Shown here piece by piece: positions 44,299 to 63,322 of a stretch of DNA of 64,000 bases. The position numbers were made by a program, and so were the translations under genes. Each line of letters begins with the position of its first letter. The stretch's first letter is position 1. The notes beneath the pieces are model-generated. The model worked only from the letters and a program-made list of their open reading frames with translations. It was not told the DNA's origin and did no database searches. The stretch covers positions 548,095-612,094 of the forward strand of contig CAYVOI010000001.1 in the NCBI GenBank assembly GCA_964453605.1. Reading direction: 5' to 3'. This stretch comes from an uncultured Gammaproteobacteria bacterium (lineage in GTDB: Bacteria; Patescibacteriota; Patescibacteriia; Veblenbacterales; UBA10138).

Positions 44299-44303
44299 AA
44301 AAA

Positions 44304-44834
44304 CTACTGCACGGTAATTTTACCTACCGTGGTGACGCTAATAGTTTTGCTGGAGCCGCCAGAAATACCCACCACAATACTCTTGGCGGTAGTGGTACCG
44401 CTCAACCGGTCAAAACATACATCGAGCGGTACACCACTAATGGCAATACCATAGCCGCCGAGAGCGTAGGTAGTGGTGGCACTGGGGCAAGAGGTTGGCA
44501 TAGCAGCACTACAGGTGGACACGCTGAACAAGCAGTACTGACTAGCAGTAAAGTGGACACCCTGCGCAGTACCACCTTGCGAAGCCATGGCGCTCGACTG
44601 GGCTAGCCGAAGGGCCGAGGCAATTTCGTCGGCCGTATTCCCTAACGCCACGTTCTGTCTGAGGGAAGCGTATGAGGGTATGCCAATAGCAAGCATCAAC
44701 CCCAAAATAGCTATGGACACCAGCAGCTCTATCATGGTGAACCCCGCACCACTTTTTTTAGAAAAAAAGTGGTGCGGGGTAAATCCCTGACGTGGGCCGC
44801 GCATAGGGGCTAAATAGTTTGTGAGAACTTCCAA
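44304..44834 (-). CDS. Prepilin-type N-terminal domain protein (GspH/FimT-like minor pilin). It has an unusually long leader, so the start may lie downstream.
   Basis: ...KKSGAGFTMIELLVSIAILGLMLAIGIPSYA contains the G|FTMIELLV motif at residue ~30. Confidence 0.7.
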   Translation of the reverse strand: MEVLTNYLAPMRGPRQGFTPHHFFSKKSGAGFTMIELLVSIAILGLMLAIGIPSYASLRQNVALGNTADEIASALRLAQSSAMASQGGTAQGVHFTASQYCLFSVSTCSAAMPTSCPSATTTYALGGYGIAISGVPLDVCFDRLSGTTTAKSIVVGISGGSSKTISVTTVGKITVQ

Positions 44835-46018: not shown

Positions 46019-46020
46019 GT

Positions 46021-49439: not shown

Positions 49440-52400
49440 CTACTGACGAGCACCGGAGTAGGCAATAGCTCTGACCGTGTCCCAATCGGCAGCGCTCTGG
49501 GGTGCGTGGCCATAGGTAGCGGTGAACGACTTAGCCGCTGCCGCTTCACTCCCCAAGTTACGGCCGGTTGGCCGTAGGCCATAGGCCATCACAGTTACCG
49601 CCGCGTCGTCATGTGCGTTGCTGTCGCGCTGTGGCTCACGTTTGTATATTTTCACAAAGGCCTCTTCCGCCTGCTGTTCTTTGGCTTGGTTACGCTGGGT
49701 AGGCCAGCGGCCGTTGGCAATTTTGATCACGTCCTGCCAGTCGCCTTCAGTACTCGGCGCTTTGCCAAAAGCCGAAGCGAAACTGGACACTACACCCGCC
49801 CGCTCCCCCTGGCCTAAGCGCTGCGTGGTCGGGGTACCAAGCGCAATAAAGTCTTTTAGCTGTGGGGTAATGGTAGCAAGTTCAGCTTGTAACACTTTTA
49901 TTTTGGCGATGATCGTCTCAGCGCGCTGCAAGAGCGCGGCGGCTTGGCTTGGATCAACGCTTGTCACCTGGTCAACGTTGTTGGTAGCAACCGCTTGGGC
50001 GTCGATGGTAATGTCGTTTAGGCTCGTTGCCGAAGATGTAGTGTGGAACGTCGCTACCGGGCTGCCGTAGTAATACCCCGTGGCATTGTGACCTTCTACC
50101 TTGTAGTAGTAGGTTCTATTGGGTAGGAGGTTTAAGAGCTGTATCGTATAGACCGTGGCTAGCTCGGTGCTCTGGGTGATGGGCATCACAAACGACAGGT
50201 CGTTCGCACTTGAACCAAAACCATAAAACACACGGCCCGTGGCTGGCTGATCAACCTTCCAGTCCACAGTAGCGCCCTGGCTAGTGATGTTAGAAACGTT
50301 CACATCATAAGCGCCGATGCTGTGGCCATCTGGGGTACACTTCTGGTACTCATGGGTGTGATCGCCAAAGTAGGCCCAGACTAATCGGTACGAACCGTCG
50401 GGGTTTGTTTTCCAGTCTAGGTCATTAACCCCCGGCGTATACCACTCAGACCAAGTACCCGAGAACCACTGGATGCGGTAGTTCAGTACCTCGGGGTGTT
50501 TAGAGCTGTCGAGTGTGCCAAACTCGGTTGTGTGCAGGGCCGGCTCTGTTATGGTCGTGAACGTTGCGCAGAACGAGGGGTCGCGAACTACCACCGTAAT
50601 CCCCTGCATGTCGCCTTGGCCAGAAGCGTCCACCATTTTGAATGCAACTTGATAGGTGCCCGGCGTACTAAAGAAATGGTAAAACTTTCCGTCAGTGTTC
50701 GTATCTACGCTCGTACCGGTTGCCCAGCTCGCTGAATAGGTGAGCGTGCCACCGCTGGGGTTATTCGGCTCAACTTTGAACTGCGCTGAACCCCCCACAT
50801 CAATGGTGCGCGTACCAAAAATGTACTTAATGGTTGGCCGGATGGTCGTACCACCAGAGTTGGTGATCACACTCAGAATAGGCTGACCATCGACGTAGAG
50901 GTGGCTAGCGGTATCGCTCAAAGTCCCGTTTTGGTTCGCGTCGTAGCCCAGGTCAGCTTCACTGACTGAATAGCTCAAGTACCCCAGCACGGGCGCACCC
51001 AGAGCAAACGTATCACCATTGGCAATACTACCGGCTGTACTTAGTACCACAGTAAGGTAGCGGTAAGAACCGGGGTTCAGGGTCAATGGTGAAGTGGCAC
51101 TACCGGGCGTAGGTAGCGTACCAAAGTTCAAAGTATCAAAAGTAGTCATTGCCACACTATTACTTAGGTAATCAGAAGAGTTTTCACTTGAAGCGTATAG
51201 AGTGTAGCGCTCGTTGGTGCCTGTGTGGCTGCCCCCATCAGCGAACTGTGCCGACGTCAAGGTAACCTTAGCCGAGCCGTTGTTCTGGAGCTTGAACCTC
51301 CCCAAAGCTGTACCGGTCGCTACCACTTCAGTTACAGGGGTGGTTGGCTCAAACGCGCTCACCACTACGCCGAAAGGGACAATGTTGCTCCGGGCATTAC
51401 TTTGACCATTTAAGTTTCCGCCTGCATATGTTGGCGCCACGCCGGTCTGTGCGCCTCTCGCAGTAATGTCAGCTCCAGCTGTCATATCAAGGCTCAGGTA
51501 GAAATCATCCCCCAGGTAGCCTATGCCCCCACCTCCAACACTGGCTTTGGCGTAGATGGTTACCACTGTGCCCGGCTGAACCGGTTCAGCAAGTAGGTTA
51601 TCAGTTGCCGTCCAGGTGGTAGAACAGCTGTTGTTAACGCAAGTTGAGAACTGGCTCGCTGTAGCAAATGGGGTACTATCCATGGGGGCGGCACCTACTT
51701 GACGGTACAGTGTTATATTCACTAAGTCATTCTGGTGTAACCTAGAACCTGCAGCGTGGAGAGTGAGTCGACTAACTTTCTGCGCCTCACCTTGAGCATA
51801 GAGCTTAACAGCCAAGTATGTTTTACCTTGAGTGCCCACAGGTACTAACTGCTGTACAGTCGGGGTGGCATTAACACCCGAAACCAATGAGCCGGTGAGT
51901 GAGGTTGTGGCGCCAAACTTACAACTGGTCAGTTGCGCGACATCGGTAAGGCAAGGCTGGACTCCAGTAATATCTAGTCCCGTTTGGTAGACAAATGCAC
52001 TTAGCGCGGTTTGAATGTCGGCTGTACTATATCGGTTGGCTACAAAAGCGGCGTCGGTTGCAAACTTCATAGCCTGACCACCATAGAGGAGGTACGTTGC
52101 GCCACTGGTGGTTGTTGAGTAGCGGAAAATGGTACCATCGGGGTAAATTGAACTGAGTGGAGCACCGAGCGAGTAGTTCGCCCAGAACGCATCAGGCACA
52201 GTTAGAACCCTAGCGGACCAATTCGGACCGTAGAGGGTAGGCAGCAAGTCAGACGAGACTAGGTGTAAGACATTGGGGTACGAAATAGCGTACACACTAG
52301 TGTCAGTACTAATTTTCACAAGCCAGGTACCGGGCCGAACAGTAACATCACCACCTATCGGCAGCGCCTGTAGTTGTGATGGCGTAACCACCTTGACCTG

Positions 52401-53615
52401 GTTCTCACTCAAACCCCACGAGTAAAACACTTGCTTCCAATCGGTCCAATCAGGAGTACGGGGGAACACATAACGCTTACCATCGCTCCCCATGTAGTAT
52501 ATCCAGTTGCAAGGGTCATTGGTGCCGGCATCCACGGTGCAGGCCAGCTTGAATAAATCACCAGGGTTAAGTCCTGACGATGCTACCAGTGTAAACGTCG
52601 CTGTCACCGATTTCGCACCACTCATGGTAATGGTGCAGGTGCCTGTGCCAGTACAACCACCGCTCCAGCCAGCAAAGGTGGAACCGTTTTGAGCCATAGC
52701 GGTCAACGTAACCGTGGCACCACTCAAGAAGCTCGCGCTACAAACGCTGCCGCAGTTTATAACACTACCCGGTTGCAAGGAAGTACCTTCGAACACGGTG
52801 CCTGAACCAGTACCGACTTTCGAAACCGTCAACGTGAAGGTTGGAGTTGTAGCTGTGGTGGTGAATGAGAGTACCGAACCGTAACTTTTCCCAGCGCTAT
52901 TTTCTCCTATGGCACAGTAGTAGTAGGTGGTTACCGAGCTCAGCTGATTTACATCATAACTATAACCAATAAGAATCGAACCGCTACCGTTGCTGATGCC
53001 GCCGGTGGCAGGCAGGCGCGTGCCAAAGCTATCAGTACAGCTGCCAGGACTGGTAGTAGACAAACGGAACCAGCTAGACGTGGCTAGACCGTTCGGGTTG
53101 GTGGTGCCCTGGAGGGAGGCCGAAGTTGCTGTGACCAATGTCGCTGCTCCCGAAGTAACGGTGGGTGCCGTAGCGCTAGTGGTAAAGGTTGCGGTAACGG
53201 TTTGGTTGGCGCTCATAGTAACGGTACACGACGTACTGGCGGTGAGCGAAGCGCTGGAGTTTAGAGCGGCGGTGACAATGGGAGTACAACCACTTAAGCC
53301 CACGGTCGAGCCGGTGGCTGGGGTAGCACTTATGATTACCGTGGTGCCAGCTACAAACGACGCGCTACAAGCTGTGCCGCAGTCAATACCCCCTAGGTTA
53401 GACGTTACAGTGCCACTCCCCGTGCCAGCCCTCACCACCGTCAGTGCATAGTACACCGAGCCAGTACCCGACCCATCGATGGGTGTGGTAGCAGCACTAG
53501 CAAACTGCCCCAGCATGCTGCTGTATAACAAAATACCCATCACCAAGATGCTAGAAGCACCTAAAAAGTGGTGCGGCTTGTGGAGCTTGGCGAGCTGATG
53601 TAACCCTTGGGTCAT
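49440..53615 (-). CDS. Giant (~1391 aa) secreted beta-rich surface protein with a PKD-like domain and a C-terminal coiled-coil/helical region. The true start is probably at 53615 rather than the ORF-track start at 53726.
   Basis: An internal Met (MTQGLHQLAKLHKPHHFLGASSILVMGILLYSSMLGQFASAA) is a signal peptide preceded by a perfect AGGAGG 9 nt upstream. The 37 codons further upstream lie in AT-rich promoter-like DNA. A PKD-like segment reads FYHFFSTPGTYQVAFKMVDASGQ. Confidence 0.55.
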   Translation of the reverse strand: MTQGLHQLAKLHKPHHFLGASSILVMGILLYSSMLGQFASAATTPIDGSGTGSVYYALTVVRAGTGSGTVTSNLGGIDCGTACSASFVAGTTVIISATPATGSTVGLSGCTPIVTAALNSSASLTASTSCTVTMSANQTVTATFTTSATAPTVTSGAATLVTATSASLQGTTNPNGLATSSWFRLSTTSPGSCTDSFGTRLPATGGISNGSGSILIGYSYDVNQLSSVTTYYYCAIGENSAGKSYGSVLSFTTTATTPTFTLTVSKVGTGSGTVFEGTSLQPGSVINCGSVCSASFLSGATVTLTAMAQNGSTFAGWSGGCTGTGTCTITMSGAKSVTATFTLVASSGLNPGDLFKLACTVDAGTNDPCNWIYYMGSDGKRYVFPRTPDWTDWKQVFYSWGLSENQVKVVTPSQLQALPIGGDVTVRPGTWLVKISTDTSVYAISYPNVLHLVSSDLLPTLYGPNWSARVLTVPDAFWANYSLGAPLSSIYPDGTIFRYSTTTSGATYLLYGGQAMKFATDAAFVANRYSTADIQTALSAFVYQTGLDITGVQPCLTDVAQLTSCKFGATTSLTGSLVSGVNATPTVQQLVPVGTQGKTYLAVKLYAQGEAQKVSRLTLHAAGSRLHQNDLVNITLYRQVGAAPMDSTPFATASQFSTCVNNSCSTTWTATDNLLAEPVQPGTVVTIYAKASVGGGGIGYLGDDFYLSLDMTAGADITARGAQTGVAPTYAGGNLNGQSNARSNIVPFGVVVSAFEPTTPVTEVVATGTALGRFKLQNNGSAKVTLTSAQFADGGSHTGTNERYTLYASSENSSDYLSNSVAMTTFDTLNFGTLPTPGSATSPLTLNPGSYRYLTVVLSTAGSIANGDTFALGAPVLGYLSYSVSEADLGYDANQNGTLSDTASHLYVDGQPILSVITNSGGTTIRPTIKYIFGTRTIDVGGSAQFKVEPNNPSGGTLTYSASWATGTSVDTNTDGKFYHFFSTPGTYQVAFKMVDASGQGDMQGITVVVRDPSFCATFTTITEPALHTTEFGTLDSSKHPEVLNYRIQWFSGTWSEWYTPGVNDLDWKTNPDGSYRLVWAYFGDHTHEYQKCTPDGHSIGAYDVNVSNITSQGATVDWKVDQPATGRVFYGFGSSANDLSFVMPITQSTELATVYTIQLLNLLPNRTYYYKVEGHNATGYYYGSPVATFHTTSSATSLNDITIDAQAVATNNVDQVTSVDPSQAAALLQRAETIIAKIKVLQAELATITPQLKDFIALGTPTTQRLGQGERAGVVSSFASAFGKAPSTEGDWQDVIKIANGRWPTQRNQAKEQQAEEAFVKIYKREPQRDSNAHDDAAVTVMAYGLRPTGRNLGSEAAAAKSFTATYGHAPQSAADWDTVRAIAYSGARQ

Positions 53616-53750
53616 GTTTGTTTTCCTCCTAAATAGCTCCCTAAAAATTAGAGCGCTAAAATAATTATTTAGGCTAACTGTAGCCATTACAGTAATAATT
53701 TTAGCACAAAATGAAGAAAAAATCAAGCTAATATCCGATAAAAATCAAAC

Positions 53751-53774
53751 AGGGGTGAACCTAGGTTCACCCCT
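53751..53774 (-). terminator. Intrinsic terminator downstream of the SPFH gene.
   Basis: aggggtgaacc-ta-ggttcacccct is an 11-bp stem followed on the minus strand by GTTTGATTTTTAT. Confidence 0.55.
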
Positions 53775-53795
53775 ATCGTAAGTGCGTACTAACAG

Positions 53796-54566: not shown

Positions 54567-54815
54567 TTAAGGGTAAATTTGCTTGCCGTCGTCGTCCTCG
54601 ATGATGATGGCGTTGGTGGGGCAAGCGCGCGCCGCTTCTAAAATTAAAGCGGCATCCACCGGCAGCTCTTTGTAATCAACCCACTCACTGGTCTTGTCTC
54701 CGGCCGCACGCTTAATGACCGCTTTGCCCTCTTCATCAAGCTCGAACACTTCCGGGAGCAGCGCAATGCAGCTCGCCGCGCCAATACAGAGTTCTCGGTC
54801 AACCCGTACACGCAT
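54567..54815 (-). CDS. Small ferredoxin, probably of the [3Fe-4S] single-cluster type (Fer4_15-like, the class that includes P450-associated ferredoxins of actinobacteria).
   Basis: MRVRVDRELCIGAASCIALLPEVFELDEEGKAV...AARACPTNAIIIED gives the C-x5-C ... CP pattern with only three Cys. Confidence 0.65.
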   Translation of the reverse strand: MRVRVDRELCIGAASCIALLPEVFELDEEGKAVIKRAAGDKTSEWVDYKELPVDAALILEAARACPTNAIIIEDDDGKQIYP

Positions 54816-56337: not shown

Positions 56338-57834
56338 CTAGCGGATAGTAATAATAGGCATGCGCTCTTGTGCTTTAAGCCCTAAGGTCAGCCGCGCTTG
56401 GGTAGGTGCGTAGAGCGTAAAAAGTTTGGCGCCCTTAGCCACGCGCTCACCAAAGCGCACGTGCAGGTGCAACCCGGCAATTTTCTCGTGCGGCGCCCCG
56501 AGGTTCATGCAGACTTCGTTAATAGCTTTGTCATCTACCACCACCACACTACCTGGTTTGTCGGCGTGAATTTCGTAGCGGTAAGCGCCAGTGGCGACGG
56601 CTTCAGCGTCTAGGTTCGGGTTACCACCCTGCGCTGCGATAATTTGCTGCATCTTATGCCACGCCGCACCGCTCTCGAGCTGCCGGCGAGCCAGACGCTC
56701 ACCTTCACCACGCTTACAAAACCCTTTAAGCTCCAACAGCTCACCTGCCAAGTACACGCTCTTGTCTTCCAAATCTTGCGGCAGTAGGCTTTTCCGCTGC
56801 AACACCCTGAGCACGTCCCTAGCCTCGAGCGCCGGGCCAACGCCCCGCCCCACCGGCTCACGCGCTAACGTTTTTATCACCTTCACCTTCATACCAAACT
56901 TCCGGCCCAGGTACACAAACTTGCTCTCGAGCTGGTCGGCAGTTTTTGCCGAGCCAATTTTGGCAGTTGAACCAATAGGCATGTCTATCACGAGGTAATC
57001 CACCCCCATGGCTACCTTTTTCGCCATAATAGAAACTATCATCTTGTCATAGGGCTCGAGCGCCAGAGGCCTGGACAGCTTGATGATGCGGTCGTCGGCT
57101 GGCGCGATGGAGAGCCCACCACCCCACACCAAGCAAGCACCAGTCTTTTTGACAATGGAGCGAATCTCTGACATGGAAAACGTCACCGGGGCCAGCACCT
57201 CCATGGTGTCAGCGGTTCCGGCCGGGCTGGTTATGGCCCGGGAAGAGGTCTTGGGCATGGTGAGGCCCAAAGAGGCGATGATAGGGGTGACTATCATGGT
57301 AGTGCGGTTACCGGGCACACCACCCACCGAGTGCTTATCCACTACCTCTGTTTTCAAATTCATCTGCTCCCCGGTTTCAGCAATCGCTTTGGAGAGGTAG
57401 TAGAGCTCCTGGTCAGTGTTCGGCTTCACAAACCCCGAGGCGACGTAGTACGTCATCTCCACCGGGGAGAGACGGTTCTCCACAATATCAACAATAATAG
57501 AGCGGACTTCGTCGTAGCTTAGCTCCTTGCCTAGGAGCTTCTTCTTAATAGCTTGAATGGACGGCGGCCGCGACAGCTGTTTGAGCTCAACCAGCAGGTC
57601 GCTCTTGAGCTTAGCCGGTTGCCAAACCTCACGCCACAAGCCAACTTCACCCCTGGCTACCCGCGAGTGTGACAGCTCAGCCGCCGCCACCGTACTCTTA
57701 CCCCCGGCCCAAGACAGCTCCACCCGGTCGCCGGCTTGAACGCCAAACGCTTCCGCCTCAGTCTCGTTCAAAACCACGAGCGGCTCACCGCCAGATGAGA
57801 GATCAAGTTTTCTAGTTTTAAGAAAAATGGGCAT
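56338..57834 (-). CDS. AMP phosphorylase-like protein (thymidine/pyrimidine-nucleoside phosphorylase family with the ~80-aa N-terminal extension).
   Basis: Glycos_transf_3 / PYNP core (SVGGVPGNRTTMIVTPIIASLGLTMPKTSSRAITSPAGTADTMEVL) and a PYNP_C domain. The 498-aa length and N-terminal extension match archaeal-type AMPpase rather than DeoA (~440 aa). Confidence 0.7.
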   Translation of the reverse strand: MPIFLKTRKLDLSSGGEPLVVLNETEAEAFGVQAGDRVELSWAGGKSTVAAAELSHSRVARGEVGLWREVWQPAKLKSDLLVELKQLSRPPSIQAIKKKLLGKELSYDEVRSIIVDIVENRLSPVEMTYYVASGFVKPNTDQELYYLSKAIAETGEQMNLKTEVVDKHSVGGVPGNRTTMIVTPIIASLGLTMPKTSSRAITSPAGTADTMEVLAPVTFSMSEIRSIVKKTGACLVWGGGLSIAPADDRIIKLSRPLALEPYDKMIVSIMAKKVAMGVDYLVIDMPIGSTAKIGSAKTADQLESKFVYLGRKFGMKVKVIKTLAREPVGRGVGPALEARDVLRVLQRKSLLPQDLEDKSVYLAGELLELKGFCKRGEGERLARRQLESGAAWHKMQQIIAAQGGNPNLDAEAVATGAYRYEIHADKPGSVVVVDDKAINEVCMNLGAPHEKIAGLHLHVRFGERVAKGAKLFTLYAPTQARLTLGLKAQERMPIITIR

Positions 57835-58772
57835 TAGCGGGTGGTAATCCAGGGGTAGCGTTTTCTGACTAAGCCCGCGACCTGGCTTGGTTTAATGACA
57901 CCAAACTCAGTGATAAGACCAGTCATGTAGCGCGCTGGTACCTTATCAAATGCGAAATTGAGTGCTTTAGCACCGCGCGGTGCGTGCGGCCAAAGTTCTT
58001 TGGGGGACCTGAGCTCAAACGTGCTCTCGCCTCGCCAGTCAACTTTAAGCAGTGGCGCGGCCACGTACACGGGTACCCTTGAATCGTAGGCGGCGAGCGC
58101 CATACCAAAGCTACCAATCTTATTCAAGACTGAGCCGTCGCGGGCAATACTGTCGGCCCCGAGGAGCACCCAAGAAACTTTAACACCATCCCCCGAGTGG
58201 TTAGAGATCAAAAACGCCGCCGCACTATCGACGACCATAACCGTGGGTACATGAGCTTTACGCAAGCGTTTGTCGGTAATACGCCCCTGCAACAGTGGCC
58301 GGGTTTCGGTGTGGTAGACCCTAAAACGTTTACCGGCTCGGTGCGCATCAGCCAAAACGTGCTCAGCCAGCGACGAGTGGCAGTGGGTAAAAATGGTTTG
58401 CCCCCGGCGCACGAGCCGCTCCCCTGCTTTCACGACCAGACCGTTGGCCTCCCCGAGGTACTCAGCAAGTGCACACTCAAGGTGGTGCACGAGCTCACGC
58501 CAGGCAGTAGCTGAGCTACCACGTGTGGCGTAGTTACGCAATTCACTCACCAACCAACGAGACAAGTTGCGCGCCAAGGGCTCTGTAGGACGCACCGTCG
58601 AAAGCTCCCTTGCCACCGCGCTCAAGCGCGCCCAGTCGCGGCGACTCGCAGGTGGCGGGAGTGAACGTGCAAAGCGCGCCAGCTCATGAAGGGTGGCAGT
58701 AGCTGCCGCCGTCGCACCTTGAATACGAACACTGCGTACGTTGTACTTGAAACGTCTACGAGAGGTACTCAT
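57834..58772 (-). CDS. Ribose-1,5-bisphosphate isomerase / eIF-2B alpha-beta-delta family (MtnA-like fold).
   Basis: ...HTETRPLLQGRITDKRLRKAHVPTVMVVDSAAAFLISN...VLLGADSIARDGSVLNKIGSFGMALAAYDSRVPVYVAAPLLKVD matches the IF-2B family. It overlaps the AMPpase start by 1 nt. Confidence 0.7.
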   Translation of the reverse strand: MSTSRRRFKYNVRSVRIQGATAAATATLHELARFARSLPPPASRRDWARLSAVARELSTVRPTEPLARNLSRWLVSELRNYATRGSSATAWRELVHHLECALAEYLGEANGLVVKAGERLVRRGQTIFTHCHSSLAEHVLADAHRAGKRFRVYHTETRPLLQGRITDKRLRKAHVPTVMVVDSAAAFLISNHSGDGVKVSWVLLGADSIARDGSVLNKIGSFGMALAAYDSRVPVYVAAPLLKVDWRGESTFELRSPKELWPHAPRGAKALNFAFDKVPARYMTGLITEFGVIKPSQVAGLVRKRYPWITTR

Positions 58773-58778
58773 GGTGTA

Positions 58779-60689
58779 CTAGCTATCAAACTTCACCACC
58801 TGCCCAGGCCTCAAGGGCCGGGGCCCGGGCGGCGAGGAGGGCACTGGAGCTTGGTGGAGTGGCGCCCTAGGGTCTGGCCGACGAGCACCACCATTAAAAG
58901 AAACGGGGGCTTGTTTCAAGGCTTCGGTCAGGGAAATGCTTGGTGGGGGCGCAGGTACCGCGGGATCGGGAATGTGGACAGTTGGTTTTGGTTGAGCTAC
59001 AGCTGGTTGCGGCGAAGACTGCTGATCAGGTTGTACCGGCGGTGGTAAGGTAGCAGCACTAGACTCTACCAGAGACGCCTCAGCTGGCGCGGCAGGGGTC
59101 TGTGGTACCTCCGTCACCACCAAGCGAGGTTTGGGCTTAGGCACCAGGCCCTGCCTGACACGCTTCATGTCTTCTTTGCAGTACACGGGCCTGATGCCGT
59201 CAGGCTTGAACGGCAGCTGGACTTTACGGCCACAGACCCAGCAATTGGCCTCGAACAAATCACGAATCGGGTTTACCACGTTGAGGCGAGAAGGTTCAGC
59301 CAACTCTGCTCCCCGCTGGCGGAATGACCGCGGCACCGCACGGTAGGTGGCCTCCTCTGGGTCTAAGCTGCGCGAGTCCTCACTGGCGTTACCTTTGAAC
59401 ACGTCTTCCACGCCGGCCCAGCGCAAAATTTTCTCCTCCACGGCGGCACGGTTTTTGGCGTAGCGCTCGCGCGACACGCGAATCACCTTGTCACGGTTGT
59501 TAGTGCGTACACTAACCGGTGGCAGTGTAGTGGCGCTGAAGGGCGCGCTCGTGACGCCGTCTACCATGAGCTTCAGGTAAATGTGGTAGTTGGGCAGGCT
59601 CACCAGGTCAGCCTGGGTAAAGGTAGGGTCAAACTCCGTTTCCAAGAACTCGGCGTCCTCAGCTCCCACGCGGAACACCACCATAGTACCGACGTTGCCA
59701 AACACCGCCGCCTTGACCACGTCCCCCAGCTGCTCAATGTACTGGTGGGCAATAATGAGGTCCAGGCGGTACTTGCGGGCCTCGGACAAAATAGTGGCAA
59801 AGCTCTCGGTGGCAAAGTTTTGAAACTCGTCCACGTAGAGCATAAAGTCAGCGCGCTCTTCCTCTGGTGTGTCGATACGGCTCATGGCAGCCAGCTGCAG
59901 CTTGGTTATCATCATGGCCCCGAGTAGCGCCGAGTTGTCCTCGCCCACCCTGCCCTTACTAAGGTCCATCAGAAGTATTTTGTGGCCGTCGATAATTTCC
60001 CTAAGGTCGAGTGTGGACTTGGGCTGACCAACGATGTTGCGAATAATGGAGGAGGAGAGGAACTGCCCAATTTTGTTCTGAATAGGCGAAATGGCTTCGG
60101 TGCGGAACTTTTCGTTGTAGTTGTCGTACTCATCTATCCAGAAGCTCCTAACCACCGGGTCAGAAACTTTTTCCAAAACCTTCTTGCGGTAGTACTTATC
60201 AACTAATATGCGCGTGATGCCGAGGAGGGTGGAGCCTGGGTACTCGAGCAGCGACAGAATGGCGTTGCGGAGAATGTACTCTAGGCGCGGCCCCCAGGAA
60301 TCGGCCCAAATTTTCTTAAACACGCCAATCAGGCCCGACGCCACCAGGTGGCGGTACTTGGGGTCTACCGACTCCAGCGGGTTGAAGGCTACCGGGTAGT
60401 CAACGTCGGAGGGGTTAAAGTACACCACCTCGTTCACGCGGTGGGAGGGAATGATGTCTAAAATTTTCTCCACTAGGTCGCCGTGGGGGTCAGCCACGGC
60501 CACGCCGAACCCAGCCCGAATGTCGCTCGCGATCATGTTCTCGAGCAAGACCGATTTGCCAGCGCCAGACTTACCGATGATGTACATGTGGCGCCGGCGG
60601 TCGTCGAGCTTGATGCCGAACTTCCGGGAACTGTTCCGGAAATTAGTGACCGCAAAGGGGGTGATGGTGTAGCGAGGTAAGGTGTCCAT
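58779..60689 (-). CDS. Soluble TraD/TrwB/VirD4-like (FtsK-HerA superfamily) P-loop ATPase with a C-terminal zinc ribbon and a Pro-rich tail.
   Basis: Walker A YIIGKSGAGKSVLLENMI followed by VAVADPHGDL (a TrwB_AAD_bind-like pattern), Walker B MLYVDEFQNF, ...IIAHQYIEQLGD, then C-terminal CWVCGRKVQLPFKPDGIRPVYCKED and a PAAP...PPPSISL tail. There is no N-terminal TM segment. Confidence 0.55.
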   Translation of the reverse strand: MDTLPRYTITPFAVTNFRNSSRKFGIKLDDRRRHMYIIGKSGAGKSVLLENMIASDIRAGFGVAVADPHGDLVEKILDIIPSHRVNEVVYFNPSDVDYPVAFNPLESVDPKYRHLVASGLIGVFKKIWADSWGPRLEYILRNAILSLLEYPGSTLLGITRILVDKYYRKKVLEKVSDPVVRSFWIDEYDNYNEKFRTEAISPIQNKIGQFLSSSIIRNIVGQPKSTLDLREIIDGHKILLMDLSKGRVGEDNSALLGAMMITKLQLAAMSRIDTPEEERADFMLYVDEFQNFATESFATILSEARKYRLDLIIAHQYIEQLGDVVKAAVFGNVGTMVVFRVGAEDAEFLETEFDPTFTQADLVSLPNYHIYLKLMVDGVTSAPFSATTLPPVSVRTNNRDKVIRVSRERYAKNRAAVEEKILRWAGVEDVFKGNASEDSRSLDPEEATYRAVPRSFRQRGAELAEPSRLNVVNPIRDLFEANCWVCGRKVQLPFKPDGIRPVYCKEDMKRVRQGLVPKPKPRLVVTEVPQTPAAPAEASLVESSAATLPPPVQPDQQSSPQPAVAQPKPTVHIPDPAVPAPPPSISLTEALKQAPVSFNGGARRPDPRAPLHQAPVPSSPPGPRPLRPGQVVKFDS

Positions 60690-60695
60690 AGCAGC

Positions 60696-62117
60696 TTACT
60701 CTAGGAACGGCAGGTTGCCAGGGGGGGCGCCCTTAGCCTCCTCCGCGCTGACCTGCGGTTCAGGGGCGCTCACCGGCCTCAGGTACCCCCTGCCCATGAC
60801 CGGCAGCACGAAGGGTGGCTCAGCCTTCTTGACCTCAGTCTTCTTTACGAGCGGCGCCTTAACTGTTACCACCGGGAAGTGGTACATGGTGGCGAGCTCC
60901 TCGGTGTTAAGTATGACGCCGTGGCCAAGCCCGCGGTGCGTGCTGCGCGCTTTGAACGAGCGCAAGATGCTGCGCCGCTTATGGTCGAGCCGTGACTGTT
61001 TAAAGAAGTAGGCCACTTGGGTAGTTACGCGCTTGCCTGGTTTCCACTCGTTGAGGTTGTGGGTGCTGAACTGTTGAATCGCTCCCACTACGGCAGAAAC
61101 CCCCCTACCCTTCAGGAACGTTTCGCGTCGGCCCCAGTAGACCAGGCGGAACTTGGTCAGGAACCCAATCTTAGACGCCTTGCGTTCGATGGCTTCCACA
61201 ATGGTACGCTCGCCTGGCGTAAGCTTCATAACCTCGCTCACCAGCTCCTGTTGTTCAGACTCAGACAGGCCGCTGTACCCCGCGCACCAGGTGGGTTCAA
61301 TAATACCGGCAAAGAGAATTTCAACTATGGTGCAGAGGGTTTGGGTGGGCAGCTCAACAAACAAAAAGTAGAGTATACCATGCGACGAACCATGTTCGCG
61401 CTTAACCAAACGTTGTACCTCGGCCAGAGAGCGTTCGGTCCAGGCGCCCTTGACCGGCGTCAGCACCCACTGCAGCCAAATGTCCTCATCAGCGCCGATC
61501 CGACCCAACACCTCGAGCAACGAGGCCATGGGGTCTTTAAAATCACCGCTCAAGGTGTGCTCAAAATCGGGGTAGGTGCGAATGGGGTAAACGTCTTTCT
61601 TCACCAGCTGAAACTCAGTCCCCCACAGGTCGTGGGTTTCGGTATCGAAGTTCGAGGGCAGGCGCCCGACGTAATCCTCCACCGCCGTTATTTCGGCATC
61701 GGGGTACTGGGCGTAAATAGCTGCCTCCAGCAGGTCGCGCCAGTACACGGGTGTGCGCACCAGGTACTGAATGTAGCCGCCCAAAGATACGAGCTCAAAG
61801 CTAATTGATTCCTGATGCTTGCCATGCCAAAACCTATCCCATAGGGTGAAGCTATTGTACGCCCCCGACACGGTGGAAAAAATCTGCTCCACGGCCTGCG
61901 GCGACTGTTCGGTCTCGCGTGGTACGTCGATGGCTAGCAGTACGTACTCCAAGCTGTGGAGGAACTTGTGCCGCCTCGAGTTCACCCAGGCGGTCCAGGC
62001 CGCCCACAAGAACACGAACACCACCACCACCCAGCCACCATGCACCAACGCCCACCACGCAAAGGCCCAGGGGCTGTCGCTGGGGATACCAGTGAAATCA
62101 AGGCTCAGCTCAAACAT
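60696..62117 (-). CDS. Hypothetical membrane protein (2 N-terminal TM helices + large cytoplasmic domain), tightly coupled to the ATPase downstream.
   Basis: WAFAWWALVHGGWVVVVFVFLWAAWTAWV forms a TM hairpin. The remainder (~400 aa) has no recognisable motif. The gap to the flanking genes on either side is 3-6 nt. Confidence 0.4.
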   Translation of the reverse strand: MFELSLDFTGIPSDSPWAFAWWALVHGGWVVVVFVFLWAAWTAWVNSRRHKFLHSLEYVLLAIDVPRETEQSPQAVEQIFSTVSGAYNSFTLWDRFWHGKHQESISFELVSLGGYIQYLVRTPVYWRDLLEAAIYAQYPDAEITAVEDYVGRLPSNFDTETHDLWGTEFQLVKKDVYPIRTYPDFEHTLSGDFKDPMASLLEVLGRIGADEDIWLQWVLTPVKGAWTERSLAEVQRLVKREHGSSHGILYFLFVELPTQTLCTIVEILFAGIIEPTWCAGYSGLSESEQQELVSEVMKLTPGERTIVEAIERKASKIGFLTKFRLVYWGRRETFLKGRGVSAVVGAIQQFSTHNLNEWKPGKRVTTQVAYFFKQSRLDHKRRSILRSFKARSTHRGLGHGVILNTEELATMYHFPVVTVKAPLVKKTEVKKAEPPFVLPVMGRGYLRPVSAPEPQVSAEEAKGAPPGNLPFLE

Positions 62118-62120
62118 AGC

Positions 62121-63245
62121 TTAGGCGGCAGTGCGGGCTACGGTGTACCGACCGTCGGGCAGGCGCTCAAAGCGCTTACGGTTAGTAAGCGCCAAGTGGA
62201 TGGTCCCCGGCTTGACCACACGTTGCTTCAGGAGCTCGGCCACCAGCTCATCGCGGTGCATCGGTGCACCGCGCTGCTCGAGTATGCTCAGCAACACATC
62301 AGCCACTACGCCTGGACGGTAGCCCCACTCCTGTAGAGCGTAGATGCCCCTCCCCACCAGCACGTACTTCTTGTCCATGATGAGTTCGTTGTGCACCGTC
62401 GGTGGGTAGGCTACCTTGTGGTCGAACTTGGCTTCGTTAATAAGGCGCGTAATGTCCCTAAAGTGCAGCGGCTTAGCCTGCTTTTTTAAAACGAGGTAGA
62501 TTTTGTCGTTCATGCGTTTCGGGTTCACCGTTTCCCAGTGCCCCAAACCCCACTCACCAAAGGTGTTCCTCCTCACCTGACGGCTAATGGCGAGTAACCC
62601 CAACAGGACCCGGCCGTCGGCCAAGGTGCCACCCAGGGGCCCTGCCAGGTTAGCCCGGCTGAGCTCAGCTGCCAGCTCAGCCTCAGGCACGGGGGTTCCT
62701 CGTGCGCTAATGAGGTCTTGGGTGTGGGTAATCAGCTTATGTAGCGCGTCGAGCGAAGCACTACGCAAACGCCAGCTTGAGTGGTACTCAGTATCTTCGC
62801 CACCAAACTCCACTACCACGTCGGTGAGCAACTGCTCCAGGTAGAACCCAATGACGTGTTTGTTCTTAGTGTCCCCGGCTTCGAGCAAGAGCTCGACCAA
62901 GTGTTCGTCAGTCGCGGCGCCGCCTTCAGCTTCTAACAGCTCTAAGACCACCTGTCGTACCGGGCCGATGGTGTCTTGGTTGGCCTTACCCTGGGTAAGC
63001 TTCTGCACGCTGAGGCGCTGTATCTGGCGTATGCGTTCACGGGTTACCTGGAGTGTAGCCCCGATGCTCTCCAACGTTTCTGGTTCAGCACCCGTGAGGC
63101 CAAACCTGCGTTCCAAAATCTGGCGCTCGCGTTCACCAATGGTTTCCAAGAGCTGCCGCAGGGCCGCTTGTGGCAAAAAGTGCTCGCGGTGCGAAACCTG
63201 TTGGGTGGAAATGATTTTATCAAGTATAGACTCTTGCTCTGTCAT
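62121..63245 (-). CDS. Protein with an N-terminal sigma-70 region-4-like HTH followed by two HARE-HTH-like (RNA polymerase delta-subunit-like) winged helices. It is not a complete sigma factor.
   Basis: ERERQILERRFGLTGAEPETLESIGATLQVTRERIRQIQRLSVQKL matches sigma70_r4. C-terminal segments IYLVLKKQAKPLHFRDITRLI and VADVLLSILEQRGAPMHRDELVAELL resemble the HARE-HTH of RpoE/delta. No region-2 is present. Confidence 0.45.
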   Translation of the reverse strand: MTEQESILDKIISTQQVSHREHFLPQAALRQLLETIGERERQILERRFGLTGAEPETLESIGATLQVTRERIRQIQRLSVQKLTQGKANQDTIGPVRQVVLELLEAEGGAATDEHLVELLLEAGDTKNKHVIGFYLEQLLTDVVVEFGGEDTEYHSSWRLRSASLDALHKLITHTQDLISARGTPVPEAELAAELSRANLAGPLGGTLADGRVLLGLLAISRQVRRNTFGEWGLGHWETVNPKRMNDKIYLVLKKQAKPLHFRDITRLINEAKFDHKVAYPPTVHNELIMDKKYVLVGRGIYALQEWGYRPGVVADVLLSILEQRGAPMHRDELVAELLKQRVVKPGTIHLALTNRKRFERLPDGRYTVARTAA

Positions 63246-63293: not shown

Positions 63294-63322
63294 AGTATAT
63301 CATAATTACCAATTTCTGTCAA
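63294..63322 (-). promoter_or_regulatory. Sigma-70-like promoter candidate for the 62121..63245 operon.
   Basis: Minus strand reads TTGACA - 17 nt - TATACT, about 45 nt upstream of the ATG at 63245, in an AT-rich intergenic segment. Confidence 0.35.

What the first reader, a model, noticed from the sequence alone, without database searches (positions are those of the whole stretch)
58779..63245. Co-operonic trio: sigma-r4/HARE-HTH protein, membrane protein and a VirD4/TraD-like ATPase with zinc ribbon, fused to an AMP-salvage operon
Three genes with 3-6-nt spacing head a long minus-strand operon. (i) The first has a sigma-70 region-4 HTH plus two HARE-HTH-like winged helices. Both folds are RNAP- or DNA-associated, and the combination is unusual. 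(ii) The second is a 473-aa protein with an N-terminal TM hairpin and no known domain. (iii) The third is a 636-aa soluble coupling-protein-like (TrwB/VirD4/FtsK-HerA) ATPase that ends in a CxxC...LPFKPD...C zinc ribbon and a Pro-rich tail. Coupling-protein ATPases with a membrane partner and a DNA-binding protein suggest a DNA or nucleoprotein translocation module (uptake, export or conjugation-like). Yet there is no relaxase, VirB4 or pilus gene nearby, and the trio is transcriptionally welded to housekeeping nucleotide-salvage genes. I cannot match this trio to any described system. It could be a novel DNA-handling or defence-related module, or a lineage-specific housekeeping complex.
Basis: inference. 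Interest (0 to 1): 0.65.

Follow-up and report, generated by a model that had tools for sequence, protein, structure and literature searches.

The report
Split type-IV coupling ATPase in Patescibacteria
Two of the three genes are the halves of one membrane-anchored motor protein, related to the coupling ATPases of bacterial conjugation and found in nearly all ultra-small Patescibacteria. The third gene is a separate DNA-binding protein that probably associates with RNA polymerase, and the link to nucleotide-salvage genes is a local accident of gene order.

Summary
They are not an undescribed system.

- **G2 and G3 are one protein, split.** G2 (473 aa) is Pfam DUF8128. G3 (636 aa) is a VirD4/TrwB-type ATPase. 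In many Patescibacteria (Berkel-, Saccharibacteria, Gottesmanbacteria) and in Bacillus phage G gp156, one polypeptide carries DUF8128 at the N-terminus and the ATPase at the C-terminus, with a seamless junction.
- **G2 structure.** It has one transmembrane helix. Its predicted fold resembles the VirB4 N-terminal domain.
- **G3 structure.** Its fold is closest to DotL, TrwB and Cag-beta.
[quoted passage not shown] The most likely role is therefore a coupling ATPase for the Patescibacteria type IV secretion system, encoded away from it here.
- **Prior report.** These orphan VirD4 homologues were described in 2025, in 2,918 of 3,035 genomes.
- **G1 looks functionally separable.** It has sigma region 4 plus HARE-HTH. 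It lies next to G2 in only 41 of 74 loci. Its Saccharibacteria orthologue is essential, while the adjacent fused ATPase is not.
- **AMP-salvage adjacency is clade-specific:** 6 of 80 loci in one direction and 3 of 43 in the reverse test.

Verdict: a new variant of a known kind, of moderate interest.

The parts
63294..63322 (-). Promoter-like site TTGACA-17-TATACT with a TG extension, in the 137-nt SecF-G1 gap. Predicted start of the operon.
   Evidence: 11 of 12 consensus matches; gap length. This is a pattern match only.
62121..63245 (-). G1: a 374-aa protein with sigma-70 region 4 plus winged-helix/HARE-HTH domains. It has no sigma region 2, so it is not a sigma factor.
   Evidence: The Saccharibacteria orthologue SEML1_0294 is essential in Tn-seq.
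62979..63176 (-). G1 sigma region 4 (residues 24-89), including the 4.2 recognition helix TRERIRQIQ (63018-63044).
   Evidence: It matches SigA region 4 in PDB entries at E 4e-11. It is conserved across 52 homologues.
62316..62528 (-). G1 HARE-HTH winged helix (residues about 240-310), the best-conserved part of G1.
   Evidence: Pfam PF05066. NCBIfam RNAP delta model at 244-307: 29 bits against a cut-off of 42. Conservation.
60696..62117 (-). G2: DUF8128 (PF26449) protein. It corresponds to the N-terminal half of the fused DUF8128-coupling ATPase found in other lineages.
61983..62069 (-). G2's single N-terminal transmembrane segment (residues 17-45, with a conserved HGG), followed by the basic stretch RRHK.
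   Evidence: Hydropathy, AF2 helix 16-55, invariant G27.
60705..60725 (-). Conserved C-terminal PPxNLP(F) motif on G2's disordered tail. The tail lies beyond the point where fused homologues continue straight into the ATPase. I infer it is a tether to G3.
   Evidence: P466, N468 and P470 are invariant. The motif is present in 45 of 54 loci. In fused homologues the G2-like part ends at the equivalent of about residue 440.
58779..60689 (-). G3: a soluble VirD4/TrwB-type (T4CP) ATPase. It corresponds to the C-terminal half of the fused protein.
60552..60575 (-). G3 Walker A motif, GKSGAGKS (residues 39-46).
59823..59837 (-). G3 Walker B motif, YVDEF (residues 285-289). All five residues are invariant in 18 homologues.
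59172..59264 (-). G3 treble-clef zinc ribbon (residues 476-506; C483, C486, C504; the fourth Cys is replaced here).
   Evidence: Pfam zf_Tbcl_2 E 6e-10 and TIGR04272. Present in 35 of 54 adjacent G3 genes. Coordinates.
58782..59171 (-). G3's disordered, proline-rich tail (24% Pro) with the conserved short motifs ISLxEAL (58917-58937) and the C-terminal PGQVVKF (58788-58808).
56338..58772 (-). e2b2 (ribose-1,5-bisphosphate isomerase) and AMP phosphorylase. They are co-transcribed here but are a clade-specific insertion, not part of the module.
   Evidence: In L003 G3 is followed directly by EamA-DUF5671-ferredoxin.
53748..53777 (-). Strong terminator-like hairpin (13-bp stem plus a T run) after the SPFH gene. 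Predicted end of the nine-gene operon.
   Evidence: All gaps from G1 to SPFH are 6 nt or less.

Best explanation
G2 and G3 together form one machine. They are a split version of the DUF8128-VirD4-like coupling ATPase that almost all Patescibacteria encode.

**Shown**
- G2 matches the N-terminal ~380 residues of single-chain homologues and G3 matches the C-terminal ~420 residues, with a seamless junction.
- G2 has one N-terminal hydrophobic helix.
- G3 has intact Walker A and B motifs.
- G3's predicted fold is closest to solved coupling proteins (DotL, TrwB, Cag-beta).

**Inferred**
- G2 anchors a G3 hexamer to the cytoplasmic face of the membrane.
- G2's conserved C-terminal PPxNLP tail replaces the lost covalent link.
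- G2's soluble domain, which resembles the VirB4 N-terminal domain in fold, docks the ATPase onto membrane partners.
- G3's zinc-ribbon and proline-rich tail recruits the substrate or an adaptor, as the C-terminal tails of TraD and DotL do.

**Most likely function (about even odds).** It is the substrate-coupling motor of the Patescibacteria type IV secretion system, encoded away from the VirB4 cluster in this lineage. This rests on the TM-less fused orthologues, which sit directly beside PrgI-TraC-like-VirB4 genes.

**G1.** It is a separate protein, probably RNA-polymerase-associated, with sigma region 4 (an intact -35-type recognition helix) and HARE-HTH. It heads the same predicted operon but has its own essential role.

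**AMP-salvage genes.** They are a clade-specific insertion into an older gene order: SecD-SecF-G1-G2-G3-EamA-DUF5671-ferredoxin.
For: **Fusion**
- phrog_5156 (824 positions) matches G2 at positions 49-284 and G3 at 407-806.
- hhalign of the DUF8128 alignment against phage G gp156 residues 4-324: probability 97%, E 3e-11.
- G3 matches the C-terminal half of gp156.
- Dozens of CPR proteins of 725-1142 aa carry PF26449 together with PF10412.
- BLASTP: G2 aligns to P0419 residues 7-382 (E 3e-50). G3 aligns to residues 384-803 at 59% identity. The same pattern holds for Saccharibacteria, Falkowbacteria and Gottesmanbacteria proteins.
- Fused homologues align across the G2/G3 boundary of the window in a single tblastn HSP.

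**Adjacency**
- G3 lies directly downstream of G2 in 56 of 74 loci.

**ATPase type**
- TrwB is the only sequence-level PDB hit.
- Foldseek ranks DotL (6e-10), TrwB and Cag-beta first, then HerA.

**G2 fold**
- TrwK/VirB4 chains are the only PDB hits below 1e-3.
- The VirB4-like phage G gp155 matches at 9.6e-7.

**T4SS link**
- Four of four TM-less fused orthologues (54-55% identical to G3 where compared, P0460 and P0481) are divergently adjacent to PrgI-TraC-like-VirB4 clusters.

**Prevalence**
- At least 588 species-representative genomes.
- 3,187 cluster representatives at 50% identity.
- 2,918 of 3,035 genomes have VirD4-type homologues (PMC12102498).

**G1 separability**
- G1 is adjacent in 41 of 74 loci.
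- SEML1_0294 is essential, while the adjacent fused SEML1_0293 is non-essential.
- Presence of the zinc ribbon does not track presence of G1.

**AMP link**
- 6 of 80 loci and 3 of 43 in the reverse test.
Against: - In Southlakia epibionticum the T4SS genes are essential, but the fused DUF8128-ATPase (SEML1_0293) is not. It is therefore dispensable for whatever makes the T4SS essential.
- VirD4-type homologues are more widespread (2,918 genomes) than VirB4 (2,417 genomes), and only 148 of 5,713 lie near virB4. A T4SS-independent role remains open.
- No T4SS gene is visible in this 64-kb window.
- The resemblance of G2 to the VirB4 N-terminal domain rests on fold search alone. TM-scores are low (0.35) and the model is of medium confidence (pLDDT 69.5). 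Profile-profile comparisons with VirB4, TrsD and TrsE were negative.
- Physical interaction between G2 and G3 was not tested.
- G1's adjacency to the ATPase recurs in a distant class (Saccharimonadia). That could mean a functional tie I am under-weighting.
Confidence: 0.6

Rival explanations
1. **Stand-alone DNA translocase.** The membrane-anchored G2-G3 hexamer pumps DNA on its own, independent of the T4SS. It would act either as a motor for DNA uptake (competence) or as an FtsK-like segregation pump. The zinc ribbon would bind nucleic acid.
For: - The family is present in about 96% of genomes and is usually far from virB4.
- It is non-essential in a Tn-seq library that was itself made by natural transformation. 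Such a screen cannot score a competence motor.
- A type IV pilus cluster lies 11 kb away in the window.
- HerA DNA translocases are the next-best structural matches.
Against: - The closest folds are coupling proteins, not FtsK. Pfam FtsK_SpoIIIE scores 17.5 bits against a cut-off of 24, on the P-loop only.
- Four of four TM-less orthologues sit in T4SS loci.
- No ComEC, ComEA or DprA linkage was seen in any neighbourhood examined.
- The zinc ribbon is missing in 19 of 54 G3 genes and in all fused forms listed.
Confidence: 0.2
2. **Integrated trio.** G1 is the DNA-binding adaptor of the ATPase. It would play the role of TraM or TrwA in conjugation, delivering specific DNA or a nucleoprotein to G3's C-terminal tail for translocation.
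For: - G1 heads the same predicted operon, with a 3-nt gap.
- G1 is adjacent to G2 in 41 of 74 loci.
- G1 is adjacent to the fused ATPase in a distant class, Saccharimonadia (SEML1_0294/0293).
- G1 carries several HTH modules.
- G3 has a TraG-D_C-like region and a tail with conserved short motifs.
Against: - G1 is essential while the ATPase is not.
- G1 is absent beside the ATPase in 33 of 74 loci and in six of the seven fused-orthologue contexts whose gene tables I read here; the Southlakia orthologue, known only from the published tables, is the exception.
- Presence of the zinc-ribbon tail does not track presence of G1: 21 of 31 loci with G1 against 11 of 18 without.
- The G1 domains (sigma region 4, delta-like HARE-HTH) point to RNA polymerase, not to a relaxosome.
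Confidence: 0.12
3. **Sec-linked housekeeping.** The ATPase complex assists protein export or membrane biogenesis together with SecDF.
For: - SecF is the usual upstream neighbour. It lies directly upstream of G1 in 19 of 37 assessable loci, and directly upstream of G2 in most loci that lack G1.
- SecDF also lies next to the Berkelbacteria paralogues.
Against: - In the window SecF has its own terminator-like hairpin, and G1 has its own promoter-like site.
- No coupling-protein or VirB4-family ATPase is known to work with Sec (established knowledge).
- Fused orthologues occur in unrelated contexts.
Confidence: 0.05
4. **Anti-phage defence.** The trio is a HerA- or MADS-like defence system.
For: Weak PADLOC hits: mad8 at E 6e-13 for G3, HerA at about 1e-6, and MzaA for G1's region 4.
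Against: - The hits cover generic P-loop and region-4 segments only.
- There is no nuclease, Sir2 or other effector partner.
- The family is present in about 96% of genomes of a phylum at a syntenic chromosomal site with 54-74% identity. That is the opposite of the patchy, island-borne pattern of defence genes.
Confidence: 0.03

Closest known systems
Type IV coupling proteins (VirD4, TrwB of R388, TraD, DotL, Cag-beta)
   Same: - G3 has the same P-loop nucleotide-binding domain with a helical insertion.
- TrwB is the only sequence hit in the PDB.
- DotL, TrwB and Cag-beta are the top fold matches.
- G3 has a variable C-terminal tail, as in TraD and DotL.
- Orthologues sit beside VirB4 clusters.
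   Different: - There is no transmembrane domain in the ATPase chain.
- Instead, a ~400-residue DUF8128 domain precedes the ATPase. It is either a separate gene (here) or fused, and classical coupling proteins lack it.
- G3 has a zinc-ribbon tail.
- The genes are chromosomal, present in nearly every genome, have no relaxase nearby, and are usually far from virB4.
- G3 scores far below the curated TraD and VirD4 cut-offs.
Orphan VirD4-type T4CP homologues of Patescibacteria (Quinonero-Coronel et al. 2025, PMC12102498), including SEML1_0293 of Southlakia epibionticum (Wang et al. 2023, PMC10633639)
   Same: This is the same protein family. G3 is 42-61% identical to the ATPase half of fused CPR members, and SEML1_0293 has the same layout: 921 aa with the ATPase at residues 402-719.
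   Different: - As far as I read them, the papers treat it as a plain coupling-protein homologue. Term searches of both papers found no mention of the DUF8128 module, the split and fused forms, the partner genes or the phage relatives.
- The window carries the split form with a zinc-ribbon tail.
VirB4 / TrwK, and the split TrsD + TrsE pair of pSK41/pGO1
   Same: - The layout is the same: an N-terminal non-ATPase domain followed by a RecA-like ATPase.
- TrwK is the best PDB fold match for G2.
- In pSK41 a VirB4-N-domain-like gene (trsD) directly precedes the ATPase gene trsE, just as G2 precedes G3.
   Different: - There is no detectable sequence or profile similarity of DUF8128 to VirB4, TrsD or TrsE.
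- The ATPase half is closer to VirD4-type proteins than to VirB4.
Bacillus phage G gp156 (phrog_5156) and the ~900-aa proteins of SPO1/CP-51/JL-like phages
   Same: gp156 is a fused DUF8128 + coupling-type ATPase, and the homology holds at sequence, profile and fold level.
   Different: - The phage proteins lack the transmembrane helix and the zinc ribbon.
- Their function is unknown.
- gp156 sits next to a VirB4-like gene, gp155.
RNA polymerase delta subunit (RpoE) of Firmicutes and sigma-70 region 4 (for G1)
   Same: - G1 has a HARE-HTH winged helix like the N-terminal domain of delta.
- It has a bona fide region 4 with a conserved 4.2 recognition helix.
- From my own recollection of the Pfam PF05066 description, fusions of HARE-HTH with sigma regions 3/4 have been noted and predicted to be delta-like modulators of RNA polymerase. 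I did not check this here.
   Different: - G1 has no sigma region 2, so it cannot act as a sigma factor.
- It has no acidic delta tail.
- It has extra winged helices.
- It is specific to Patescibacteria and essential in S. epibionticum.

Membership tests
Type IV coupling protein (VirD4/TrwB/TraD) | P-loop NTPase domain of the FtsK/HerA/TrwB superfamily with Walker A and Walker B motifs | tested here: met
   GKSGAGKS at residues 39-46 and YVDEF at 285-289, aligned to the TrwB motifs. These residues are invariant in homologues.
Type IV coupling protein (VirD4/TrwB/TraD) | Fold closest to solved coupling proteins, including the all-alpha insertion domain | tested here: met
   Foldseek: DotL 6e-10, TrwB about 1e-8, Cag-beta 6e-8, all ahead of HerA. 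The model is of medium confidence: pLDDT 64.5 overall, with a better core. Pfam TrwB_AAD_bind scores 29.6 bits against a cut-off of 20.5.
Type IV coupling protein (VirD4/TrwB/TraD) | N-terminal transmembrane anchor in the same polypeptide | tested here: not met
   G3 has no hydrophobic segment. The anchor is on G2, or in cis in fused homologues.
Type IV coupling protein (VirD4/TrwB/TraD) | Genetic association with T4SS (VirB4) or relaxase genes | tested here: inconclusive
   None is in the 64-kb window. Four of four TM-less fused orthologues are adjacent to PrgI-TraC-like-VirB4 clusters. The rest of this genome could not be read.
Type IV coupling protein (VirD4/TrwB/TraD) | Reaches the curated family thresholds (NCBIfam TraD/VirD4 models) | tested here: not met
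   Best hit is TIGR03743 at 41 bits against a cut-off of 366. CD1115-family VirD4 scores 37 against 250.
Type IV coupling protein (VirD4/TrwB/TraD) | Hexameric ring that recruits and translocates substrates | not testable with these tools
   This needs biochemistry or a multimer prediction. Only single chains could be modelled.
VirB4 (G2+G3 taken together) | VirB4-type N-terminal domain | tested here: inconclusive
   Fold: TrwK is the only PDB hit below 1e-3 (E 1.5e-4, TM-score 0.35), and VirB4-like gp155 matches at 9.6e-7. Sequence profiles: no similarity to At VirB4, a 9-sequence VirB4 alignment, TrsD or TrsE.
VirB4 (G2+G3 taken together) | C-terminal ATPase of VirB4 type | tested here: not met
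   VirB4 models hit only the P-loop (TIGR00929: 16.6 bits against a cut-off of 643). Coupling proteins outrank VirB4 in the fold search.
DUF8128 (Pfam PF26449) | Match to the Pfam model | tested here: met
   The precomputed Pfam annotation of the identical protein P0001 and of all close homologues is PF26449. The local, older Pfam copy lacks this model.
Sigma-70 family sigma factor (G1) | Region 2 (core binding and -10 recognition) in addition to region 4 | tested here: not met
   Only Sigma70_r4 is found. All NCBIfam sigma models match residues ~5-90 only and score far below their cut-offs.
RNA polymerase delta subunit (G1) | Delta-type HARE-HTH domain reaching the model cut-off, and an acidic C-terminal tail | tested here: not met
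   TIGR04567 scores 29 bits against a cut-off of 42. The C-terminus (…RLPDGRYTVARTAA) is not acidic.
FtsK/SpoIIIE DNA translocase (G3) | FtsK motor domain reaching the Pfam threshold | tested here: not met
   PF01580 scores 17.5 bits against a cut-off of 24, covering residues 33-55 only.
HerA-type defence systems | HerA ATPase paired with an effector (NurA, Sir2, DUF4297 or similar) | tested here: not met
   Only weak PADLOC hits. No effector gene appears in the operon or in the related loci.

The most novel reading that the evidence does not exclude
The DUF8128-coupling ATPase may be an ancient hybrid or intermediate between VirB4 (N-domain) and VirD4 (motor). On this reading, it works in most Patescibacteria without the T4SS, as a phylum-wide membrane-anchored nucleic-acid translocase.

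Its conserved operon partner G1 is an essential protein with sigma region 4 and HARE-HTH, in a lineage whose RpoA lacks the alpha C-terminal domain. G1 could tie RNA polymerase or specific DNA to this motor. That would be a new way for genome-reduced epibionts to import, export or organise nucleic acids.

The related genes in Bacillus jumbo and SPO1-like phages would then be a second, independent use of the same machine.
Probability: 0.12. Interest if true: 0.8.

Novelty: new variant of a known kind. Interest (0 to 1): 0.5.

Why it matters
- **A concrete object for an open question.** Patescibacteria make up a large share of bacterial diversity, and their type IV secretion system is the first one shown to be essential for its owner. 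Its substrate and its coupling protein are unknown. Published surveys list the VirD4-type homologues as orphans.
- **What this analysis adds.** These homologues always come with a ~400-residue DUF8128 module. The module is split off in some classes, fused in others, and VirB4-N-domain-like in fold. In one class the gene sits inside the T4SS locus. That gives a defined two-part protein whose interface, tail motifs and partners can be tested.
- **A function for a large DUF.** DUF8128 has more than 3,000 cluster representatives at 50% identity.
- **A link to phages.** The family is connected to uncharacterised phage proteins, Bacillus phage G gp155 and gp156.
- **A caution on annotation.** The G1 family, commonly annotated "RpoS", is not a sigma factor.

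Tried and rejected
- **VirB4 homology by profile comparison.** I compared the DUF8128 alignment with Agrobacterium VirB4, a 9-sequence VirB4 alignment (full length and N-domain only), pSK41 TrsD and TrsE, and phage G gp155. All gave probability below 1%. Homology to VirB4 is therefore not claimed, only fold resemblance.
- **Other family searches with DUF8128.** The local Pfam and NCBIfam libraries and PDB sequences gave nothing.
- **tblastn of G2 against phage genomes.** No match. The link to phages needed profiles and folds.
- **R388 plasmid.** The accession is not in the plasmid collection.
- **Exhaustive representative search.** It gave the family size, but its top 150 hits were all stand-alone proteins and did not reveal fusions. 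Querying with phage G gp156 did reveal them.
- **Defence reading.** Rejected.
- **AMP-salvage coupling.** Rejected after testing both directions.
- **Co-dependence of the zinc ribbon and G1.** No correlation.
- **Small proteins next to fused paralogues** (159-173 aa, 114-118 aa). They are not homologous across groups and are absent from the window.
- **tRNA and Rfam scans of the window.** Nothing found.

Full report
**1.

Three minus-strand ORFs occupy exactly the stated coordinates:
- G1, 62121-63245, 374 aa
- G2, 60696-62117, 473 aa
- G3, 58779-60689, 636 aa

The gaps are 3 nt, 6 nt and 6 nt to the next gene.

Pfam and NCBIfam confirm the domains:
- G1 has Sigma70_r4 (residues 33-83, E 4e-11) and a HARE-HTH.
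- G3 has weak but above-threshold DUF87, TrwB_AAD_bind, T4SS-DNA_transf and TraG-D_C matches, plus a treble-clef zinc ribbon (zf_Tbcl_2/TIGR04272, residues 476-506).
- G3's last 130 residues are 24% proline.

Downstream lie e2b2 (IF-2B family) and AMP phosphorylase.

A near-consensus promoter-like site (TTGACA-17-TATACT with a TG extension, 63322-63294) sits in the 137-nt gap after SecF. A strong hairpin terminator (53777-53748) follows the SPFH gene. Every gap in between is 6 nt or less. The predicted unit is therefore nine genes: G1, G2, G3, e2b2, AMPpase, EamA, DUF5671, ferredoxin and SPFH. These are pattern matches, not transcript data.

**2. Corrections to the description.**

- G2 is not domain-less. 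The identical protein and all its relatives carry PF26449 (DUF8128) in a newer Pfam release than the local copy.
- G2 has a single hydrophobic stretch (residues 17-45, with a conserved HGG) followed by RRHK. AlphaFold models it as one long helix. It is best read as one membrane anchor with the bulk of the protein in the cytoplasm, not as a hairpin.
- Pilus genes are in fact nearby. A type IV pilus cluster (PilB 46021-47778, PilC 44810-46018, pilins 43310-44834) lies about 11 kb downstream.
- No VirB4, relaxase or mobile-element hallmark is near the trio. The window is an ordinary chromosome stretch with ribosomal proteins, RpoA, AlaRS, MnmA, a sortase and giant surface proteins.

**3. The family and its neighbourhood.**

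*G2.* It has 2,708 hits in the 90%-clustered database, and every named hit is from Patescibacteria. A profile search finds 3,187 representatives at 50% identity. At least 588 species-representative genomes encode a relative.

*G3.* It is unusually conserved, at 54-74% identity across candidate phyla.

*Gene order.* In the 80 best loci:
- G3 lies directly downstream of G2 in 56 of 74 assessable cases.
- G1 lies directly upstream of G2 in 41 of 74.
- The full trio is present in 32 of 68.
- Where G1 is missing, SecF is usually the direct upstream neighbour.

Three distant genomes show SecD-SecF-G1-G2-G3 with different downstream genes.

*AMP salvage.* In L003, G3 is followed directly by EamA-DUF5671-ferredoxin-CAP. 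That is the order found in the window once e2b2 and AMPpase are removed. AMPpase lies within the flank in only 6 of 80 loci. In the reverse test on 80 metagenomic AMPpase loci, only 3 of 43 assessable loci have G3 upstream. Several equally close AMPpases lack it. The AMP-salvage link is therefore clade-specific.

**4. G2 and G3 are two halves of one protein.**

- One PHROG profile of 824 positions (phrog_5156) matches G2 at positions 49-284 and G3 at 407-806.
- A member of that family, Bacillus phage G gp156 (825 aa), aligns to the DUF8128 profile over residues 4-324 (hhalign probability 97%, E 3e-11). It aligns to G3 over its C-terminal half.
- Using gp156 as a query brought up dozens of Patescibacteria proteins of 725-1142 aa that carry both PF26449 and TrwB_AAD_bind. 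Named sources include Berkelbacteria, Falkowbacteria, Saccharibacteria and Gottesmanbacteria.
- BLASTP places G2 on residues 7-382 of P0419 (E 3e-50) and G3 on residues 384-803 (59% identity). The same split holds for the others.
- Fused homologues align straight across the G2/G3 boundary in the window.
- Wang et al. (PMC10633639) list SEML1_0293 of Southlakia epibionticum as a 921-aa protein with the ATPase at residues 402-719. This has the same layout.
- In fused proteins the G2-like part ends at about G2 residue 440. The extra disordered tail of split G2, ending in the invariant PPxNLP motif, is my candidate for the tether that replaces the peptide bond. This is inference.

**5. What kind of machine it is.**

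*G3.* Its model (pLDDT 64.5, with a better core) is closest to DotL (E 6e-10), TrwB and Cag-beta, followed by HerA. TrwB is the only sequence-level PDB hit. Walker A and B motifs are intact and invariant. The ATPase is therefore of the coupling-protein (VirD4) type.

*G2.* Its model (pLDDT 69.5, pTM 0.67) has only TrwK/VirB4 chains among PDB hits below 1e-3 (E 1.5e-4, about 445 aligned columns, TM-score 0.35). Among viral models it matches:
- gp156 (1.5e-14)
- a 913-aa Bacillus phage JL protein
- phage G gp155 (9.6e-7), a VirB4/TraG-P-loop/AAA_10-type ATPase encoded next to gp156

No profile comparison with VirB4, TrsD or TrsE gave any signal. The VirB4-N-domain likeness is therefore a structural lead, not established homology.

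*Layout.* The protein reads: anchor, VirB4-N-like domain, VirD4-like motor, variable tail. The pSK41 gene pair trsD (VirB4-N-like) followed by trsE (the ATPase) is a formal parallel to G2 followed by G3.

**6. Function.**

*The T4SS link.* All four TM-less fused orthologues I could look up are divergently adjacent to a PrgI / TraC-like / VirB4 cluster. They are 726-736 aa, and the two compared (P0460, P0481) are 54-55% identical to G3. One of the four is named Gottesmanbacteria.

*Other contexts differ.*
- Berkelbacteria carry two tandem fused paralogues (829 and 937 aa) next to SecDF.
- An "829-type" sits in a ferredoxin / 159-aa protein / fused gene / DnaX arrangement.
- Saccharibacteria place the gene before gyrBA.

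Two paralogue groups fit the published count of 5,713 VirD4-type homologues in 2,918 of 3,035 genomes, only 148 of them near virB4. Those authors suggest the gene may have been exapted (PMC12102498).

*Weighing it.* Against a simple T4SS role, the Southlakia T4SS is essential, but SEML1_0293 is called non-essential. Its read counts do fall about four-fold over the passages. On balance I rate [quoted passage not shown] as the most likely function, at about even odds. A T4SS-independent DNA pump is the main rival.

**7. G1.**

- Its N-terminus is a true sigma region 4 (SigA region 4 in the PDB, E 4e-11). The 4.2 recognition helix (TRERIRQIQ in the window protein, TRERVRQIE in the consensus) is conserved in 52 homologues.
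- It has no region 2, so it is not a sigma factor, despite the "RpoS" label in some annotations.
- The best-conserved part is the HARE-HTH (residues about 240-310). It resembles the N-terminal domain of RNA polymerase delta but scores below that model's cut-off.
- The Southlakia orthologue SEML1_0294 is a core, Patescibacteria-enriched family. It is essential at every time point, and it sits directly upstream of the non-essential fused ATPase.
- G1 adjacency is absent from 33 of 74 loci and from six of the seven fused-orthologue contexts whose gene tables I read here (the Southlakia orthologue, known only from the published tables, is the exception), and it does not track the zinc-ribbon tail.

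I therefore treat G1 as a separate, probably RNA-polymerase-associated factor that shares an old operon with the ATPase. A minority possibility is that it also serves as the ATPase's DNA-binding adaptor.

**8. Comparison and novelty.**

- The ATPase family is already in the literature as orphan VirD4 homologues of Patescibacteria.
- DUF8128 is a catalogued DUF with no paper behind it (no hits in the paper library).
- From my memory of the Pfam entry, which I did not verify here, the sigma-r3/4 + HARE-HTH architecture has been noted before.

As far as I could find, the following are new:
- DUF8128 is the constant N-terminal module of this coupling-type ATPase.
- That ATPase exists in split and fused forms.
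- The VirB4-N-like fold of DUF8128.
- The T4SS-adjacent subgroup.
- The relatives in Bacillus phages.
- The conserved SecDF-G1-G2-G3 order.

This is a new variant of a known kind. A defence role and a tie to AMP salvage are not supported.

Noticed in passing
window 10081-10872 (-): RpoA is only 263 aa. It aligns solely to the alpha N-terminal domain of solved RNA polymerases (residues ~7-231), and Pfam finds no alpha-CTD. The RpoA of another CPR genome (L005, 256 aa) looks the same. An RNA polymerase without alpha-CTD may bear on why a protein with sigma region 4 and HARE-HTH (G1) is essential.
   Followed up: partly
window 43310-47778 (-): A type IV pilus cluster: PilB-like T2SSE ATPase (46021-47778), PilC (44810-46018) and three prepilin-type genes (43310-44834). 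An 823-aa protein with no clear domain follows (40842-43313).
   Followed up: partly
window 16615-39874 (-): A sortase gene sits next to three giant surface proteins: 1428 aa and 1491 aa with SpaA, DUF11 and PKD repeats, and 3373 aa with Big_3_5 and Big_1. There is also a 713-aa collagen-triple-helix-repeat protein. A further 1428-aa surface protein lies at 49440-53726.
   Followed up: no
window 40141-40695 (-): A lone 184-aa protein with a Cas2-like / PaaX_M domain. No other CRISPR-Cas gene was seen nearby.
   Followed up: no
window 60687-60698 (-): G2 and G3 are in the same reading frame, separated only by TAA and two codons (…PFLE * A A M…). Fused homologues align through the stop in one tblastn HSP. 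Gap lengths in other loci are not multiples of three, so this is probably chance. Read-through was not examined.
   Followed up: partly
L047 5220-8289: In one close relative (SecF-G1-…-AMPpase context), G2 and G3 lie in a single 1023-aa ORF, but the G3 match starts only at residue 79, so the Walker A region is missing or diverged. This could be a natural re-fusion, a decaying gene or an assembly error.
   Followed up: no
L101 1898-7814: A Berkelbacteria contig carries two fused DUF8128-ATPase paralogues in tandem (829 aa and 937 aa), separated by a 173-aa gene, with SecF and SecD next to them on the other strand. This shows at least two paralogue groups in the family.
   Followed up: partly
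window 54567-54815 (-); L001 11305-11547; L003 12372-12620; L099 5335-5508; L104 4335-4508: A small 4Fe-4S ferredoxin recurs within a few genes of DUF8128-ATPase genes of both paralogue groups and in distant lineages. Unexplained.
   Followed up: no
L087 1223-5365 (Bacillus phage G gp155, gp156): Jumbo phage G encodes a VirB4-like ATPase (gp155) directly upstream of a fused DUF8128-coupling ATPase (gp156). SPO1, CP-51, JL and related Bacillus phages have ~900-aa relatives (SPO1 gp27.4). The function in phages is unknown.
   Followed up: partly
L011, L017, L027, L029, L060 and others: Many clearly CPR-type MAGs are titled "uncultured Gammaproteobacteria bacterium" in the records, and single ones "Acutalibacteraceae" or "Binatia". 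They have 0.7-0.9 Mb contigs and the same SecF-G1-G2-G3 synteny. These labels look like placeholders or errors, not evidence that the family occurs outside Patescibacteria.
   Followed up: no
window 59172-59264 (-): The zinc ribbon of this G3 and its nearest relatives has YCKEDM where most homologues have YCKxC. The fourth cysteine ligand is replaced. Whether zinc is still bound is unknown.
   Followed up: no
window 1065-2024 (-): A tyrosine recombinase (phage-integrase family, XerC/D-like) lies at the far end of the window, about 57 kb from the trio. It shows no sign of marking a mobile element that includes the trio.
   Followed up: no
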